From the UHGV virus genome UHGV-0197631: a stretch of DNA of 43,736 bases; one strand, 5' to 3'. A program made the position numbers and the translations under genes. Each line of letters opens with the position of its first letter. Within the stretch, counting starts at the first letter, position 1. Below the pieces are notes generated by a model. It was not told the origin of the DNA. It saw only the letters and a list, made by a program, of their open reading frames with translations, and did not search any database. The stretch is from a virus. This document shows, one piece after another, positions 20,279 to 25,591 of this stretch.

Positions 20279-20772
20279 TAAGCCCCCACGTAATTCCCTG
20301 ACAGATACCACTCTTCACCCGATGCAGCGCGCTTGCTGCTTTTCCGTAAGCACCGCTCACGACGCACCAGAAAATTGTTTCGTTCTGGCTGGGAGTGGCT
20401 TTCACGGAATGCCGCCATCCACACGGTTGCAGCACGACGGTATAAGCCCCTGGACTCCAGTTCTTCCGCCTGGCGGGTCAGGCACAAAATCACCCGGGGA
20501 TCGTTAGTGCCGACATAGAAATTGCGCACAGGTCTGGATTCACGAACTGGTTGCGGTTCCGGCTCCTGCGGTATCTCAGTCAGCCGCGGGAAATGTCTGC
20601 GTGTATCCCCTTCACAACGGTGAGCCACACGCCCACTCTGACGTAACTTGCTTGCTGACTGCTGAACGCGCTGCCGCGAGTAACCAGCAAAAGCATCCGC
20701 AATGTCTCCGGAAGTACACCCCGGATTGGCTTCAATGAATTTCTGAACGTCATTTAACAGACTCATGATCAC
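20278..20772 (-). CDS. hypothetical protein with N-terminal winged-helix-like region
   Basis: 164 aa; basic C-terminal half; translationally coupled to both neighbours. Confidence 0.35.
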   Translation of the reverse strand: MIMSLLNDVQKFIEANPGCTSGDIADAFAGYSRQRVQQSASKLRQSGRVAHRCEGDTRRHFPRLTEIPQEPEPQPVRESRPVRNFYVGTNDPRVILCLTRQAEELESRGLYRRAATVWMAAFRESHSQPERNNFLVRRERCLRKSSKRAASGEEWYLSGNYVGA

Positions 20773-21710
20773 CCCCTGAATCCTGCCGGGATCTGGCTGT
20801 AGTCCACGTTGTCGTAACTGGCTTTGAAGTACGGGTCTTCACGTTTTTCTGTGTGCGTGCTGACGGACGGCGATAAGCGCAGGGAAAGCTCATCCCATTT
20901 TTCCCGCAACTTCGACGGGCTGAGCACGTTACGGCACCAGAACGGATCGCGGCTGACGCGGCTGTACATCTCGCAGATTTGTTTGTGAGTACGACCATCC
21001 TGCACACACATCAGGCGAATTTCGTTTGCCCAGGCTGTCCAGTTAGGTTCTTTGGGACGAACCACCTCGCCGTCACATTCGGCGGCCTGCTCGTACAGGG
21101 CGATGATTTTTTTCCAGAGCCACTGTGCGCAGGTCAAATCATCCTGCGTTCCCCACTGGCGCTTTTTAGAGCTGAATACAACCGCATCAGGATGACGAGT
21201 TAAAAAATCCTGTTCATCCTTCTTCATGTCCGGTTGCGAAGCGTCCGGACGAGAAGTTTTTTTATCTGACGGATCATGTTTTGATTTTACTGACGGATCC
21301 CCGCCAGATTCTGACGGGTGAAAACCCGCTTTTTTGCCAGATTTCGACGCATCAAATTTTGACGGGTCAGATTTTGATGCGTCAGATTTTGACGGGTCAG
21401 AATCTGACAGTTGAGAAAATGCCGCTGCCTGAAGCTTCGCAACGTTAAGCTGATAAACATTCGACGCATTGCGGTTACCCTGGCGACGCGCCTTACGCGT
21501 TAACCAGCCTTCTGCTTCCAGCCGTGCGATAGCCGTTCTGACGGTACTCATCCCCGCGCCAATCTGGCGGGCAATGGTTTCAATTGATGGCCAGCACACA
21601 CCTTCGTCATTACTGAAATCAGCCAGGCGGGCCATAATTGCCACGCTGGATAACTTCATGCCTGACGCAGCGCAACCATCCCATACATAGCCGGTTAATT
21701 TAGTGCTCAT
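20769..21710 (-). CDS. replication initiation protein (HTH N-terminal domain, iteron-containing)
   Basis: 313 aa; N-terminal HTH (SSVAIMARLADFSNDEGVCWPSIETIARQIGAGMSTVRTAIARLEAEGW); repetitive SDPSKSDASKSDPSK peptide encoded by DNA iterons; lambda O-like position after cro/cII. Confidence 0.6.
   Translation of the reverse strand: MSTKLTGYVWDGCAASGMKLSSVAIMARLADFSNDEGVCWPSIETIARQIGAGMSTVRTAIARLEAEGWLTRKARRQGNRNASNVYQLNVAKLQAAAFSQLSDSDPSKSDASKSDPSKFDASKSGKKAGFHPSESGGDPSVKSKHDPSDKKTSRPDASQPDMKKDEQDFLTRHPDAVVFSSKKRQWGTQDDLTCAQWLWKKIIALYEQAAECDGEVVRPKEPNWTAWANEIRLMCVQDGRTHKQICEMYSRVSRDPFWCRNVLSPSKLREKWDELSLRLSPSVSTHTEKREDPYFKASYDNVDYSQIPAGFRG
21255..21415. repeat. iterons (direct repeats of ~18 bp, GATTTTGACGGGTCAGA-like): candidate origin of replication
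   Basis: At least 5 tandem degenerate copies (tcaaattttgacgggtcag / attttgatgcgtcag / attttgacgggtcag / atctgacggatc...) inside the replication protein gene. Confidence 0.55.
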
Positions 21711-22058: not shown

Positions 22059-22684
22059 GCGTTAGTTTCTCCACAGTCACGACACGCCACGGCGCCCGGA
22101 GCTGCACACTCGCGGGCGTCATTACTTTCTGAAATGCAAAAGATTTTGTAGACCAGTGCTGCATGCTCCTGCAGCTTCGAAATTGAGAGATACAGCTCGT
22201 CGTTAATTGCTGTCTGCTCGTGTGGCTCCACTACCCCATCTTCGATTGCCGAACGAATCTGCTTTGAGTAACTCCCGATCTGTTCGATGACTTCCAGCAG
22301 GCGCTGGTTTATATCGGCGTTCTCTACTTCCTCAATTTCAGGAAGCGATACGAACACCCCACCAGCAGACTGTGCGACAGCATCCGCAATGTAGTGAGTG
22401 CCAGCTGCGCGCTGTAAAACCATTGCCCATCCCAGCGGGAAAATCTGATCGCCATCGGCACGAAGGCGGTTAAATAATGCGTTCTCTGTTACATCCAGCC
22501 AGTCAGCAGCTTCAGCGTAACCACCCGGCAACGCCGCGATAGTTTTTCTGACAGCTTTCACGTACCACTCAGGCTGTTTTTCTACTTTCCAGTGATGCTT
22601 ACCCACGGTTAACTCCTCGTTTCTGTGGTTACGTTTACGCAACTGAACCGCTAACTTTTGAATAGCACTCTGGTAATCCATCAT
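22055..22684 (-). CDS. phage regulatory protein (CII/YdaT-like position), identity uncertain
   Basis: Long ORF downstream of cro; start tentatively at MMDYQ (ATG 22684); position corresponds to cII/ydaT of lambdoid and Rac-type prophages. Confidence 0.35.
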
Positions 22685-22898
22685 TTGGATTTGGATAAAT
22701 ATCAGGACGCAGCTCATGGGGGGTTACGGACCAGTTCCCCAGCTCACAAAGTTGTAAAACTCGTTCCGACGGGACTTGATTGTTAATTACCCAATTAGCG
22801 ACAGATTGAGTAGATTTAAAACCAAAGCGACGAGCTACTTCAGATAAAGACTTTCCCGCAGCCTTTACTGCTTTCTCGGTGTAGTTTTGAGATGACAT
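22635..22898 (-). CDS. cro: Cro-like HTH repressor
   Basis: 87 aa HTH protein divergent from the cI gene across an operator-containing intergenic region. Confidence 0.65.
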   Translation of the reverse strand: MSSQNYTEKAVKAAGKSLSEVARRFGFKSTQSVANWVINNQVPSERVLQLCELGNWSVTPHELRPDIYPNPNDGLPECYSKVSGSVA

Positions 22899-22930
22899 AT
22901 CTTTCTCCTCTGAAATCCAGAGGGGATAAT

Positions 22931-22968
22931 GCTACTTAAAGTAGCAAATTGCAACTACTTAAAATAGA
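22931..22968. promoter_or_regulatory. OR-like operator region (17-bp palindrome TGCTACTTAAAGTAGCA plus degenerate copy)
   Basis: Perfect 17-bp palindrome at 22930-22946 and related CTACTTAAAATAG 20 bp downstream, between divergent cro and cI. Confidence 0.5.
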
Positions 22969-22969
22969 A

Positions 22970-23710
22970 ATGACGAGCGTATGTGATGTGAGTAATCTTC
23001 TACCTATGGTAGAAGAACAGAAGTATCCAGATTTCGCCAAGAGACTAAACGAGTTAATGACAAACAAGGGAATTTCTGTCACCCAACTCAAAAGTCTTGT
23101 TGGCGTTACATATGAAATGGCGCGGCGATACACAATCGGCGCAGCGAAGCCTCGTGCCTCTGTCATGAATAAACTTGCGTTGGCTCTGGGGGTATCGGCT
23201 TCATATTTAGAATATGGTGTTGGCGAGAGAGAAGGATGTAAGGAAATGGCAAGCATCCCCAATCCAACAAAACCCGACGTATACAGGATAGAAGTTTTAG
23301 ATCTTAGCGTTAGCGCAGGACCTGGAACCTATATGCTTTCAGACTATGTTGATGTGCTCTACGCCATTGAGTTCACAACAGAACATGCCCGTTCTCTTTT
23401 CGGTAACCGTTCTCAGGATGATATTAAGGTTATGACTGTAAATGGCGATAGTATGTCCCCTACTCTCGTTTCCGGAGATCGACTGTTTGTCGACATTTCT
23501 GTTCGTCACTTCCAGACTGATGGAATTTACTCTTTCGTTTACGGTAAGACTTTTCATGTTAAACGTCTTCAAATGCAAGGTGACAAGCTAGCCGTTCTTT
23601 CGGATAACCCTGCCTATGAGAAATGGTACATCGATGAAAAATCGCAGGATCAGCTTTATGTAATGGGCAAGGCGTTGATTCATGAGTCAATAAAATACAA
23701 TCGGTTATAG
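22970..23710 (+). CDS. cI: CI-type repressor (HTH_XRE + S24 LexA-like peptidase domain)
   Basis: N-terminal HTH, C-terminal Ser/Lys dyad context (NGDSMSPT ... HVKRL); ORF opens at TTG 22949, ATG candidates at 22970 and 23006. Confidence 0.75.
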   Translation: MTSVCDVSNLLPMVEEQKYPDFAKRLNELMTNKGISVTQLKSLVGVTYEMARRYTIGAAKPRASVMNKLALALGVSASYLEYGVGEREGCKEMASIPNPTKPDVYRIEVLDLSVSAGPGTYMLSDYVDVLYAIEFTTEHARSLFGNRSQDDIKVMTVNGDSMSPTLVSGDRLFVDISVRHFQTDGIYSFVYGKTFHVKRLQMQGDKLAVLSDNPAYEKWYIDEKSQDQLYVMGKALIHESIKYNRL

Positions 23711-23725
23711 TTCTAAGGGCATATA

Positions 23726-24073
23726 ATGGCTAGTGAGCAGGGATTCGAAAAGATTAACATGGATATGTTGGTCTCTTATTTCTCAGAAAAGAATATATAT
23801 CTAAAATGTACACTATGTGGACACGACAGATTGACTGTGCCTCAAGTCAGCGCGAATGTGGGCATGCCATGTACTATGAAACTTGGTAGTTATGTGAATG
23901 TTTTTACTGAAAAAAGCATTTATTCTGATACTGCTAACCAGTATTACTTTTCACTAATATGCAACAATTGTGGAAATGAAATTCATATAAATGCGTTTTC
24001 AGTTTTGAACTGGGTAAATGAAAAGTTCCCAGCAAAAACGGAAGATGAAAAAAATGCCGACGCCGCAAAATAA
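23726..24073 (+). CDS. hypothetical zinc-ribbon-like protein in the rexA-equivalent slot
   Basis: 115 aa; two CxxC pairs (CTLCGH ... CNNCGNE); AT-rich; 16 nt downstream of cI on the same strand. Confidence 0.45.
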   Translation: MASEQGFEKINMDMLVSYFSEKNIYLKCTLCGHDRLTVPQVSANVGMPCTMKLGSYVNVFTEKSIYSDTANQYYFSLICNNCGNEIHINAFSVLNWVNEKFPAKTEDEKNADAAK

Positions 24074-24425
24074 TGTAGTACCATTTAATAGTGAACTTCC
24101 CACAATTAGAAGACACGGTGGAGATGGCGGAGGTGATGACATGCTTGAAGCCCGAGTCGCTAAGTTAGAAGCGAATGTTGAGGATATAAAAACAAATCTC
24201 GCAGAGATGAGAGCTGACATTCGTGATTTGCGAAACGCTCTCTCCGACACCCGACGCGATGTCGCTGTTATCCTTCAAAAACAAATAGATATAGATGAAA
24301 AGTTGTCAAAAAAACCTAGCCTAAGTGAAGTCAACAGCGCTATTTCATCAGCCGTAAATAAACAGATCGCATGGACTGTTGCAACAGGCTTGGCGATTTT
24401 AGGTCTCGCCAAATTTATGTTTTGA
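24045..24425 (+). CDS. hypothetical coiled-coil protein with C-terminal transmembrane anchor (rexB-equivalent slot)
   Basis: Start at MKKMPTPQ overlapping the upstream stop; central heptad-like region (LEARVAKLEANVEDIKTNLAEMRADIRDLRNAL); C-terminal IAWTVATGLAILGLAKFMF. Confidence 0.45.
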   Translation: MKKMPTPQNNVVPFNSELPTIRRHGGDGGGDDMLEARVAKLEANVEDIKTNLAEMRADIRDLRNALSDTRRDVAVILQKQIDIDEKLSKKPSLSEVNSAISSAVNKQIAWTVATGLAILGLAKFMF

Positions 24426-24756
24426 TAAGTTTTTGACTATGACCTGCCCTAGTTTTCTTACTATCGAGGCTAAATCACACAATCCATTGAGTAGTAAATT
24501 CCCTACCGTTTTACACTTAGCCTCCAAAAACTCAACAATACTCTCATGATTGACTTCTCCCCACTTGATGATTAACTAGATCACATACTGATCTCAGCCA
24601 CAATGAAACAATCCATCACGTTCTACAACTCAGCTAACTTCACAATATAATTTTTTGATCATAGCCCCCAAAATATTTTACCTGTAAATTCAATGAATTA
24701 ATTTCAAAATGCGTTTTCATGCCCTTAACTTCTACTTTTTGTAGTTGATTTTTGCA

Positions 24757-24773
24757 ACTTTAAGTAGCAATAT
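24757..24773. promoter_or_regulatory. OL-like operator copy
   Basis: TGCAACTTTAAGTAGCA matches the OR palindrome TGCTACTTAAAGTAGCA at 15 of 17 positions (right half-site identical), ~1.8 kb from OR. Confidence 0.4.
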
Positions 24774-24896
24774 CATTTTACCGACAACGAACAGGCAGGA
24801 CGCCCACGAAGTAGCCGCTTGGGGCATATGAAGTCCAGGATGACTCGTTGAGTCATGTTGTGCCACTAGGCACTCATGTTAAAGCAGGTGTATGAA

Positions 24897-25172
24897 ATGA
24901 AAGTCCAGATTTTAAACAATAACTGTGAAGTCGTTTGGTCATACGACATAGCCGCCCCTGTAGATCAGAGCGGCGATAGCTGGACCAATGGGAAACATCA
25001 GATTATGGCTGGAGTTGTGTTCTCTTTACGCCGTGCTTTGGAACAGGCTGAAGTATTTCCATCAGACCCTGAATGGAAATGGCCTTTTTCTATTTGTCCA
25101 AATTCGGAGAGCACATTTCAGAAAATTGGTCAGAAAGTCGCACTCGAAGAGCATCAGCCAACTGTTTCCTGA
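24897..25172 (+). CDS. hypothetical protein (first ORF downstream of OL-like operator)
   Basis: Start MKVQILNN with AGGTG upstream; overlaps convergent ORF 25090..25335, so one of the two may be spurious. Confidence 0.3.
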   Translation: MKVQILNNNCEVVWSYDIAAPVDQSGDSWTNGKHQIMAGVVFSLRRALEQAEVFPSDPEWKWPFSICPNSESTFQKIGQKVALEEHQPTVS

Positions 25173-25335
25173 TTTTTTCAGGTAACTCGTCGGCATCGCA
25201 GAAACAACAACGCTCGATCATGTTGAAAGCCGATTCGTAGAACTGTTTCTGCTGAGTGTCGCTGAGACAGGAAAAGAGCGACGTTACGATGATTTTATTA
25301 ATTGCATTATCAAGTTCTTTTTCATCAAAAGTCAT
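25090..25335 (-). CDS. hypothetical acidic protein
   Basis: 81 aa; AGGAAA Shine-Dalgarno 8 nt upstream of ATG 25335. Confidence 0.35.
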   Translation of the reverse strand: MTFDEKELDNAINKIIVTSLFSCLSDTQQKQFYESAFNMIERCCFCDADELPEKIRKQLADALRVRLSDQFSEMCSPNLDK

Positions 25336-25591
25336 TTGATTTTCCTTTTATGTATACGGGCTTAAAAGGATACCACCGAGCCTGAAGTGGTGAAAAGACA
25401 GGCACATAACAGCTAAGTATTTTCAACCAAAGAGAATCCTTAGCGTTGTGGTGAATGCGGCTCAGCGCACGCGGGTTAAGGTTGAGGCTGACAGTCGACC
25501 TTCTGTGGATACCCACCCGCCTGGTGTGCAACCTTCGCCAGGCACCGGGAGGCACCCGGCACCACAACTTTATGCTGTGTGTAGTCTTGGC

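What the first reader, a model, noticed from the sequence alone, without database searches (positions are those of the whole stretch)
23726..24425. Two-gene module in the rexAB-equivalent slot downstream of cI
In lambda the genes cotranscribed with cI from PRM are rexA/rexB, an abortive-infection exclusion system. Here the same slot, between cI and the OL-like operator copy, holds two overlapping AT-rich genes: a 115-aa protein with two CxxC pairs (zinc-ribbon-like) and a ~126-aa protein with a central coiled-coil and a C-terminal transmembrane anchor. Neither resembles RexA/RexB as far as I can tell. A lysogen-expressed sensor plus small membrane effector is the architecture expected for a prophage-encoded superinfection-exclusion system.
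Basis: inference. Interest (0 to 1): 0.75.

Follow-up and report, generated by a model that had tools for sequence, protein, structure and literature searches.

The report
Repressor-linked two-gene prophage cargo module
Right behind the prophage's repressor gene sit two real, conserved genes of unknown function: a small zinc-ribbon protein and a membrane-anchored coiled-coil protein. They belong to a shuffled two-gene family that trails repressor genes in many enterobacterial prophages and most likely excludes rival phages, which is still untested.

Summary
Between cI (23006-23710) and an OL-like operator (24753-24770) lie two AT-rich, overlapping genes. ORF1 (23726-24073) is a 115-aa protein with two invariant CxxC pairs. 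ORF2 (24054/24045-24425) has a disordered N-peptide, a Gly-rich linker, a ~59-residue helix and a C-terminal transmembrane anchor. Neither matches RexA/RexB or any Pfam, NCBIfam, PADLOC, PDB or BFVD family. Both belong only to PHROGs of unknown function.

Comparative work adds three points. (1) In about 90 loci the ORF2 family is always preceded by a tightly coupled small partner gene. Partners come from at least four unrelated families, and the ORF2 N-terminus co-varies with the partner. (2) The pair usually sits just downstream of, and co-oriented with, a maintenance repressor (cI-type, HTH-only, 186-type CI, or Mnt). These positions include lambda's rexAB slot (HK544, VT1-Sakai) and P22's sieA slot. 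(3) A Shine-Dalgarno sequence (GGAGG) plus ATG inside ORF2 is conserved at the nucleotide level, which predicts a second, 94-aa isoform.

The most likely function is a lysogen-expressed phage-exclusion module with a variable specificity subunit and a membrane-anchored coiled-coil subunit. This rests on position and architecture alone. No phenotype exists, and I found no publication on it.

The parts
22930..22970 (.). OR-type operators (two 18-nt palindromic sites) between the divergent cro-like and cI genes
   Evidence: family D1: 22930-22947 and 22953-22970
23006..23710 (+). cI-type repressor (HTH + S24 peptidase). The ORF is open from 22949; the PGAP start corresponds to 23006.
   Evidence: phrog_4 'transcriptional repressor' E=3e-50
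23726..24073 (+). ORF1: 115-aa acidic zinc-ribbon protein with two invariant CxxC pairs (phrog_4293). AAGGG lies 7 nt before the ATG, and the gene starts 15 nt after the cI stop.
24054..24425 (+). ORF2, long form (123 aa; PGAP starts it at 24045; the ORF is open from 24018). It has an N-peptide MPTPQNNVVPFN..., a Gly-rich linker, a coiled coil and a C-terminal TM (phrog_3556).
24129..24143 (+). Internal Shine-Dalgarno GGAGG (24129-24133), a 7-nt spacer and ATG (24141-24143) inside ORF2
   Evidence: GGAGG present in 34/43 distinct homolog sequences; the Gly codon at position -4 is GGA or GGG in 41/43
24141..24425 (+). Predicted short isoform of ORF2 (94 aa: coiled coil + TM only). This is also the conserved core of the family.
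   Evidence: several database entries are annotated from this Met
24363..24422 (+). C-terminal hydrophobic anchor (QIAWTVATGLAILGLAKFMF) at the very end of ORF2
24426..24720 (.). AT-rich non-coding spacer between ORF2 and the OL-like operators. No terminator, Rfam family or convincing ORF was found.
24721..24774 (.). OL-like operator region (18-nt site at 24753-24770, plus the arm of a 54-nt inverted repeat with OR)
   Evidence: D1 and I1

Best explanation
This is a lysogen-expressed, two-component phage-exclusion (superinfection-exclusion or abortive-infection) cassette carried as cargo in the repressor operon.

Shown:
- ORF1 and ORF2 are real, translationally coupled genes directly behind cI, with no room for a terminator.
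- ORF2 belongs to a family with a fixed plan: variable N-terminal peptide or domain, Gly-rich linker, invariant Met, ~60-residue helix, C-terminal membrane anchor.
- That gene is always preceded by a small partner gene from one of at least four unrelated families, ORF1's zinc-ribbon family being one.
- The partner type co-varies with the ORF2 N-terminus.
- Whole pairs, or only the coiled-coil/TM body, are exchanged between prophages.
- The pair trails maintenance-repressor genes, including the rexAB and sieA positions.

Inferred:
- ORF1 binds the N-peptide of long ORF2 at the tip of a cytoplasmic coiled-coil stalk tethered to the inner membrane, and supplies target specificity.
- On recognising a component of an incoming or replicating phage, the ORF2 assembly acts at the membrane. 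It either blocks genome entry or permeabilises the membrane to abort infection.
- The conserved internal SD-ATG yields a 94-aa isoform lacking the partner-binding end. This isoform co-assembles with the long form and sets its activity threshold, much as Esc does for SieB or S107 for S105.
For: Position and coupling:
- The cI stop to ORF1 ATG gap is 15 nt, and ORF1 and ORF2 overlap.

Family context:
- In 80 IMG/VR loci plus others, every ORF2 homolog with readable upstream sequence has a co-oriented partner gene next to it. The gap is -55 to +31 nt in all but three outlier loci.
- Partner families are the Zn-ribbon family (32 loci), a ~150-aa family (30), phrog_12039 (10) and phrog_4231 (9).
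- The gene upstream of the pair is a co-oriented repressor: S24 cI, HTH-only, 186-type CI or Mnt.
- Homologous pairs occur in HK544 and VT1-Sakai between cI and PL/OL.
- In P22-like UPF_BP1 the pair lies between mnt and gene 16. That is where sieA lies in P22 (PMC10883804).
- In Salmonella siphophages the pair lies in the moron cluster just before the tape-measure gene.

Allelic replacement:
- An identical cI protein (WP_023145979.1) carries either this pair or a 120-aa phrog_4293 plus 210-aa phrog_5820 pair.

Modularity:
- The Salmonella and Serratia ORF2 genes keep the same N-peptide as the window but have a different coiled-coil/TM body.
- The ORF2 N-terminus co-varies with the partner family.

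Internal start:
-.

Selection and distribution:
- Strong purifying selection.
- The family is essentially confined to prophages, with only 4 plasmid records.
Against: - There is no phenotype, transcript or protein data.
- No homology to any known defence or exclusion protein was found in PADLOC, Pfam, NCBIfam, PDB or BFVD.
- Guilt by position is weak on its own, because repressor-adjacent cargo also includes non-defence genes.
- ORF2 has essentially no periplasmic part, so it cannot contact an incoming tail in the periplasm the way Ltp or Cor do.
- A single C-terminal TM is an unusual effector.
- The roles of ORF1 and ORF2 could be reversed, with ORF2 as a mere tether.
- The internal-start evidence comes from related, non-independent sequences, and the Gly-rich stretch also has a plausible purely protein-level role as a linker.
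Confidence: 0.5

Rival explanations
1. It is a lysis-associated accessory of the XhlA type. ORF2 would be a tail-anchored coiled-coil membrane protein that assists or times holin-mediated lysis of the prophage's own host, and ORF1 would regulate it.
For: The architecture (coiled coil + C-terminal TM) resembles XhlA. The sequence signals are weak: Pfam XhlA matches 3 of 41 family members (best E=3.4e-4), one Salmonella relative has a 'faint' XhlA hit, PHROG 'hemolysin' families 937 and 1193 score E~0.005, holin/antiholin phrog_10340 scores E=0.011, and one UniRef entry is named 'Hemolysin XhlA'. Dual-start genes are classic for holins.
Against: All these matches are below curated thresholds and sit among dozens of generic coiled-coil hits. 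The window protein itself does not hit XhlA. In every locus examined the pair lies beside a maintenance repressor or in a moron cluster, never in a lysis cassette beside an endolysin or holin.
Confidence: 0.07
2. It is a lysogenic-conversion, host-fitness or addiction module unrelated to phage exclusion. One version is a membrane-stress or toxin-antitoxin-like pair, with ORF2 as a membrane toxin and ORF1 as its neutraliser, that stabilises the prophage or alters host envelope physiology.
For: Lysogen-expressed position. Tight translational coupling of a small soluble protein with a small membrane protein. Partner swapping matched to the ORF2 N-terminus is also what cognate toxin-antidote pairs show. 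E. coli has its own tail-anchored coiled-coil proteins (ElaB, YqjD, YgaM) with stress roles; this last point is from my own knowledge and was not tested.
Against: The gene order (putative antidote first) and a large ~60-residue coiled coil are atypical of known membrane-toxin TA pairs. The near-exclusive association with prophage immunity regions and known exclusion slots, and allelic replacement behind an identical cI, are the pattern of arms-race cargo. TA-like behaviour and defence are not mutually exclusive.
Confidence: 0.2
3. It is a regulator of the prophage's own lysis-lysogeny switch. A membrane-tethered scaffold would sequester or release a regulator (antirepressor, protease adaptor or similar) and so tune induction.
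For: The pair is constantly adjacent to cI, Mnt or 186-type CI genes, and in Salmonella it lies within Arc/Bro-N/ORF6N/KilA-N antirepressor clusters.
Against: The same repressor occurs with very different alleles of the pair, and the same pair type occurs with unrelated repressor classes. This argues against a specific regulatory partnership. Many related immunity regions lack the pair altogether: it is found in only 17 of 5426 complete E. coli genomes at the DNA level.
Confidence: 0.1

Closest known systems
Lambda rexA-rexB
   Same: The same genomic slot: downstream of cI, before OL, co-oriented and apparently cotranscribed. Two genes, one soluble and one membrane protein. Homologs of ORF2 occupy exactly this slot in HK544, whose cI is annotated as similar to lambda's repressor.
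   Different: No sequence similarity. RexB is a polytopic membrane protein and RexA is about 280 aa (my own knowledge). Here the membrane protein has one C-terminal TM and a long coiled coil, and the soluble partner is a 115-aa zinc ribbon that other protein families can replace.
P22 SieA (and the sieA locus of P22-like phages)
   Same: Pairs with an ORF2 homolog occupy the interval between mnt and gene 16 in P22-like phages. That is where sieA lies (PMC10883804). Both are inner-membrane, prophage-expressed cargo.
   Different: SieA is a single protein with several predicted transmembrane segments, sufficient by itself (PMC10883804). The present system has two genes with a single tail anchor. 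No homology to SieA turned up in PHROG or Pfam scans. A direct comparison with the SieA sequence was not done.
P22/lambda SieB-Esc, and dual-start holins (lambda S107/S105)
   Same: One gene is predicted to give a full-length and an N-terminally truncated membrane protein from an in-frame internal start, with the short form modulating the long one. The SieB/Esc and S107/S105 precedents are from my own knowledge. The internal SD-ATG here is shown.
   Different: The existence and role of the short isoform here are inferred only. No sequence relationship was seen. VT1-Sakai carries a separate annotated sieB next to N in addition to this pair.
XhlA (PF10779) tail-anchored coiled-coil proteins of Bacillus prophage lysis cassettes
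   Same: Small size, an N-terminal coiled coil and a C-terminal TM. There are sub-threshold sequence hints in a few family members.
   Different: The hits are not significant for the window protein. The genomic context is the immunity region, not the lysis cassette. The Gly-rich linker, internal start and obligatory upstream partner gene are not known XhlA features.
Actinophage repressor-adjacent two-gene defences (e.g. Gordonia phage CarolAnn, PMC6426606; Mycobacterium phage Butters, PMC7542560)
   Same: Both are prophage-expressed systems. That they pair a soluble with a membrane protein beside the immunity genes and exclude heterotypic phages is recalled from my own knowledge; one search returned only the CarolAnn abstract, and the papers themselves were not read.
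   Different: Different hosts and unrelated sequences. Those systems have demonstrated phenotypes.

Membership tests
RexA/RexB (lambda Rex exclusion system) | Sequence membership in the RexA and RexB families | tested here: not met
   No RexA or RexB family appears among Pfam hits at E<=1. There is no Rex model hit in PADLOC.
RexA/RexB (lambda Rex exclusion system) | Location between cI and OL, co-oriented with cI | tested here: met
   cI ends at 23710, ORF1 starts at 23726, and the OL-like operator lies at 24753-24770.
RexA/RexB (lambda Rex exclusion system) | Expression from PRM in lysogens and exclusion of T4 rII-type phages | not testable with these tools
   Needs RNA-seq of a lysogen and plaque assays.
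PHROG 4293 (unknown function) | Significant full-length profile match | tested here: met
   ORF1 scores E=5.2e-31 over residues 1-107. The alternative allele in strain 181.1 also matches, at E=1.1e-29.
PHROG 3556 / 12602 (unknown function) | Significant profile match | tested here: met
   ORF2 scores E=1.5e-47 against phrog_3556, but only over profile positions 138-265 of 276. It scores E=4.6e-17 against phrog_12602.
CpXC (PF14353) | Score above the Pfam gathering threshold | tested here: not met
   18.3 bits against a cut-off of 25.4, E=0.0025.
XhlA (PF10779) | Score above the Pfam threshold | tested here: not met
   The window protein has no hit. Three of 41 relatives score at best E=3.4e-4, among many generic coiled-coil hits.
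XhlA (PF10779) | Residence in a lysis cassette next to holin and endolysin genes | tested here: not met
   All contexts examined are repressor-adjacent or moron clusters.
Known anti-phage defence systems (PADLOC-DB v2) | Match to any defence-protein model | tested here: not met
   Only weak coiled-coil-type hits (LmuB, JetC; E>=9e-5) and PDC-S64 and PDC-S66 at E~0.002-0.008.
Zinc ribbon fold (generic) | Two CxxC knuckles on a beta-hairpin core | tested here: inconclusive

The most novel reading that the evidence does not exclude
The pair represents an undescribed, widespread class of prophage exclusion system in Enterobacterales. A tail-anchored coiled-coil membrane protein is made in two isoforms from a conserved internal ribosome-binding site, and its long isoform docks interchangeable small specificity proteins (zinc ribbons and at least three other folds). 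The system diversifies by swapping either the specificity subunit together with its docking peptide, or the coiled-coil/TM body, at the Gly-rich junction.
Probability: 0.3. Interest if true: 0.8.

Novelty: new variant of a known kind. Interest (0 to 1): 0.62.

Why it matters
The genes behind prophage repressors are the classic home of exclusion systems such as rexAB, sieA and BstA. Most cargo there is still annotated 'hypothetical'. This work turns one anonymous pair into a defined family with clear rules: an obligatory partner gene, four or more interchangeable partner types, a docking N-terminus, and a nucleotide-level conserved internal start. It has members in tractable phages (HK544, the Stx1 phage of O157 Sakai, P22-like phages).

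That makes it directly testable. If it is an exclusion system, it would be a compact example of modular specificity exchange and of isoform-based control of a membrane effector. It would also help explain interference between co-resident Stx and other lambdoid prophages.

Tried and rejected
- **Family libraries.** Pfam, NCBIfam, PADLOC and PHROG scans of both proteins and of the alternative partners gave only PHROGs of unknown function and coiled-coil noise.
- **PDB by sequence.** A profile search with the ORF2 family returned only generic coiled coils such as Lpp, Jun and gp26.
- **Exhaustive profile search with ORF1.** Only 30 cluster representatives reached E<=1e-3 among 1.84 billion proteins, so this is a small family.
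- **Terminator or RNA element between ORF2 and OL.** No terminator-like site, no Rfam hit, and an unremarkable fold with z=-1.1.
- **Literature.** No paper mentions the protein accessions or ECs2991/ECs2992. The DefensePredictor paper and the portions of its supplements that are held (several files were cut when stored) contain neither the accessions nor the sequence motifs. Brenes & Laub 2025 (Cell Host Microbe) is not held and could not be checked.
- **ORF2 as an artefact of a longer ORF (start at 24018).** Rejected in favour of 24054, because homologs in three other genera begin MPTP....
- **The 'different' cargo behind the same cI in other E. coli.** I first took it for unrelated genes. 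It proved to be a divergent allele of the same architecture: phrog_4293 plus another coiled-coil/TM protein.

Full report
**1. What is in the window**

The region is the immunity module of an E. coli lambdoid prophage related to CPS-53 and SfV. The exact 2-kb stretch recurs at 96-99.8% identity in 17 of 5,426 complete E. coli genomes, where it sits among ymfL, yfdP-yfdT and an integrase beside a tRNA-Thr gene.

- On the minus strand lie a cro-like gene (22635-22898, YdaS/HTH) and a CII/CP76-like gene.
- On the plus strand lies a cI-type repressor with HTH_3 and Peptidase_S24 domains. It ends at 23710.
- An 18-nt palindrome, TGCTACTTAAAGTAGCAA, occurs at 22930-22947 and 22953-22970. An 89%-identical copy lies at 24753-24770, and a 54-nt inverted repeat joins 22925-22978 to 24721-24774. 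These are OR- and OL-type operator sets.

The finding therefore does lie between cI and OL, the place lambda uses for rexA-rexB.

**2. The two genes are real**

ORF1 (23726-24073, 115 aa) starts 15 nt after the cI stop, with AAGGG 7 nt upstream of its ATG. It has CxxC at residues 28-31 and 79-82, and these four cysteines are invariant across 21 homologs down to 22% identity.

ORF2 ends at 24425. PGAP starts it at 24045. Homologs in Pectobacterium, Salmonella and Serratia begin MPTP(D/N/Q)..., matching ATG 24054, which lies 9 nt after GGAAG.

Between the window and a Salmonella prophage:
- ORF1 shows pN 0.07 against pS 0.66 (dN/dS about 0.05), the same as the neighbouring cI at 0.04.
- The ORF2 coiled-coil part shows pN 0.09-0.20 with saturated synonymous sites.

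GC is 34-39% over ORF1 and 36-43% over ORF2, against 42-53% in the flanking genes.

**3. Protein features**

ORF2 (pLDDT 71.5) has a disordered stretch at residues 1-29, one long helix at 30-88, a KKPS break, and a helix at 93-125 whose last ~20 residues (QIAWTVATGLAILGLAKFMF) are the hydrophobic end of the protein. It is thus a tail-anchored protein with essentially no periplasmic part.

Neither protein reaches the curated threshold of any Pfam family, and RexA and RexB are absent even at E<=1. Neither matches any NCBIfam model or PADLOC defence model. Both belong to PHROGs of unknown function: phrog_4293 at E=5e-31 and phrog_3556 at E=1.5e-47.

**4. The family picture**

ORF2 has 84 relatives in Enterobacterales in the large protein database. 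The C-terminal ~94 residues are conserved and the N-termini are variable. ORF1's family is small, with 21 cluster representatives in a profile search and 30 in an exhaustive HMMER scan of 1.84 billion representatives.

I collected 80 IMG/VR loci and a dozen genome or phage loci and analysed them with a script.

- Every ORF2 homolog with readable upstream sequence has a co-oriented ORF next to it. The gap is -55 to +31 nt in all but three outlier loci.
- These partners fall into unrelated families:
  - the zinc-ribbon family of ORF1 (32 loci, 18 distinct sequences);
  - a ~150-aa family without cysteine pairs (30 loci, 24 distinct sequences);
  - phrog_12039 (93 aa, 10 loci);
  - phrog_4231 (94 aa, 9 loci);
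  - a few singletons.
- The N-terminal region of ORF2 co-varies with the partner. It is 26-37 residues with zinc ribbons (often N-V-V/I-P-F), a conserved 76-91-residue domain with phrog_12039, and 55 residues with phrog_4231.
- In Salmonella and Serratia, ORF1 homologs (87% and 53% identical) are followed by an ORF2 that keeps the window's N-peptide (MPTPNNNVVPFNSELPAIKRRGGDGGGDDMLE...). After that point it continues into a different, shorter coiled-coil/TM body.

The N-peptide therefore travels with the partner, and the membrane body is exchangeable. This is the pattern expected if the partner docks on the N-terminus of ORF2.

**5. Where the pair lives**

The gene immediately upstream of the pair is, in the large majority of loci, a co-oriented maintenance repressor. 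The types seen are S24-type cI, HTH-only CI-like proteins, a 186-type CI (Phage_CI_repr + Phage_CI_C), or Mnt.

- **HK544 and VT1-Sakai.** HK544 and the Stx1 prophage VT1-Sakai (Sp15: ECs2991/ECs2992, H0053) carry a phrog_12039 + ORF2-homolog pair between cI and PL/OL. The Sakai record annotates a PRM-transcript terminator just after it.
- **P22-like phages.** In phages such as UPF_BP1 the pair lies downstream of mnt, between mnt and gene 16. A P22 study places sieA between the homologs of genes 16 and 9, and reports that only 22 of 66 P22-like phages carry sieA (PMC10883804).
- **Salmonella siphophages.** A zinc-ribbon + coiled-coil/TM pair sits in a moron cluster with Arc, Bro-N, ORF6N and KilA-N genes just before the tape-measure gene.
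- **Same cI, other allele.** In other E. coli strains the identical cI protein (WP_023145979.1) is followed by a 120-aa phrog_4293 zinc ribbon and a 210-aa coiled-coil/TM protein of another PHROG (5820). This is an allelic replacement with the same architecture.
- **Plasmids.** Only four plasmid records carry an ORF2 relative.

**6. A conserved internal start**

All ORF2 relatives have a Gly-rich stretch followed by a nearly invariant Met. At the DNA level this stretch reads as a Shine-Dalgarno sequence. In the window, GGAGG lies at 24129-24133, followed by 7 nt and then ATG at 24141.

- GGAGG lies within -18 to -4 of that ATG in 34 of 43 distinct sequences.
- The Gly codon at position -4 is GGA in 33 and GGG in 8 of 43 sequences.
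- At position -5, GGA is used 0 times in 25. Elsewhere in these genes GGA is about 28% of Gly codons.
- Neighbouring synonymous sites are randomised, and pS is saturated.

The constraint at -4 is therefore on the nucleotide and not on the amino acid. The same SD-ATG arrangement is present in the two other coiled-coil/TM body types, and gene callers often start these proteins at this Met. I infer a second product of 94 aa (24141-24425) that lacks the partner-docking end. The sequences are related and no protein data exist, so this remains an inference.

**7. Interpretation**

Three things are shown: tight coupling to the repressor gene, occupation of two slots known to hold exclusion genes, and arms-race-like modular replacement. 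The most likely function is exclusion of other phages by the lysogen. In this reading the small partner supplies specificity, and the tail-anchored coiled coil acts at the inner membrane by blocking entry or by permeabilisation. The short isoform would modulate the long one, in the manner of SieB/Esc or S107/S105 (precedents from my own knowledge).

I put this at about 0.5. The alternatives are:
- a non-defence conversion or addiction module (0.2);
- a switch regulator (0.1);
- an XhlA-like lysis accessory (0.07). The XhlA resemblance is architectural, and the sequence hits are sub-threshold and embedded in coiled-coil noise.

**8. Novelty**

I found no publication, defence-database model or curated family covering either protein. 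One relevant paper could not be read.

The kind of system, repressor-operon exclusion cargo, is well known. The components and their organisation are not. These are the interchangeable partner, the docking peptide, the tail-anchored coiled coil and the internal start. This exact allele is rare, at 0.3% of complete E. coli genomes. The family spans Escherichia, Salmonella, Klebsiella, Enterobacter, Serratia, Pectobacterium, Yersinia and others.

Noticed in passing
window 24426-24720: About 295 nt of AT-rich non-coding DNA between ORF2 and the OL-like operators, with strongly negative GC skew (-0.29 to -0.41). No terminator-like site, Rfam match or notable fold was found. A sigma-70-like site lies at 24622-24651 (+). 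Its role (PL leader, remnant of lost cargo or unannotated RNA) is unknown.
   Followed up: partly
window 25447-25566 (+): A partial, sub-threshold match to the Rfam sRNA STnc100 (35.6 bits against a gathering score of 47, E=2e-5). It lies in a region that PGAP annotates as a frameshifted hypothetical gene in identical prophages.
   Followed up: no
window 24876-25335: Two convergent ORFs overlap by 83 nt: 24876-25172 (+, 98 aa, phrog_3195, E=6e-70) and 25090-25335 (-, 81 aa, phrog_3311, E=1e-55). Each is a full-length match to its PHROG. PGAP in strain GB089 calls only the plus-strand one.
   Followed up: no
window 21338-21401: Four copies of a 15-nt tandem repeat (CAGATTTTGACGGGT) inside the replication-initiator-like gene 20769-21710 (-). 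This resembles the ori iterons embedded in lambda-type O genes.
   Followed up: no
window ~24784 and ~24850: Mosaic joints lie just right of the OL-like operators. Similarity to phage SfV and many other lambdoid and ST64B-like phages begins at about 24784, and a widely shared ~65-nt segment (about 24784-24850) accounts for most of the 1,449 E. coli records hit.
   Followed up: partly
L004/L006 5375-5758; L007 5633-5989; L056 2904-3290 (-): Genes next to the pair in other prophages often encode small BamE-like or lipoprotein-signal proteins, which are another cargo type typical of surface or entry exclusion. This suggests these slots accumulate several independent morons.
   Followed up: no
L084 3872-4693: One IMG/VR locus, downstream of a 186-type CI, has two consecutive ORF2-family genes (196 aa and 62 aa). 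A weak ORF1-family hit overlaps the start of the first. This looks like a tandem or degenerate arrangement.
   Followed up: no
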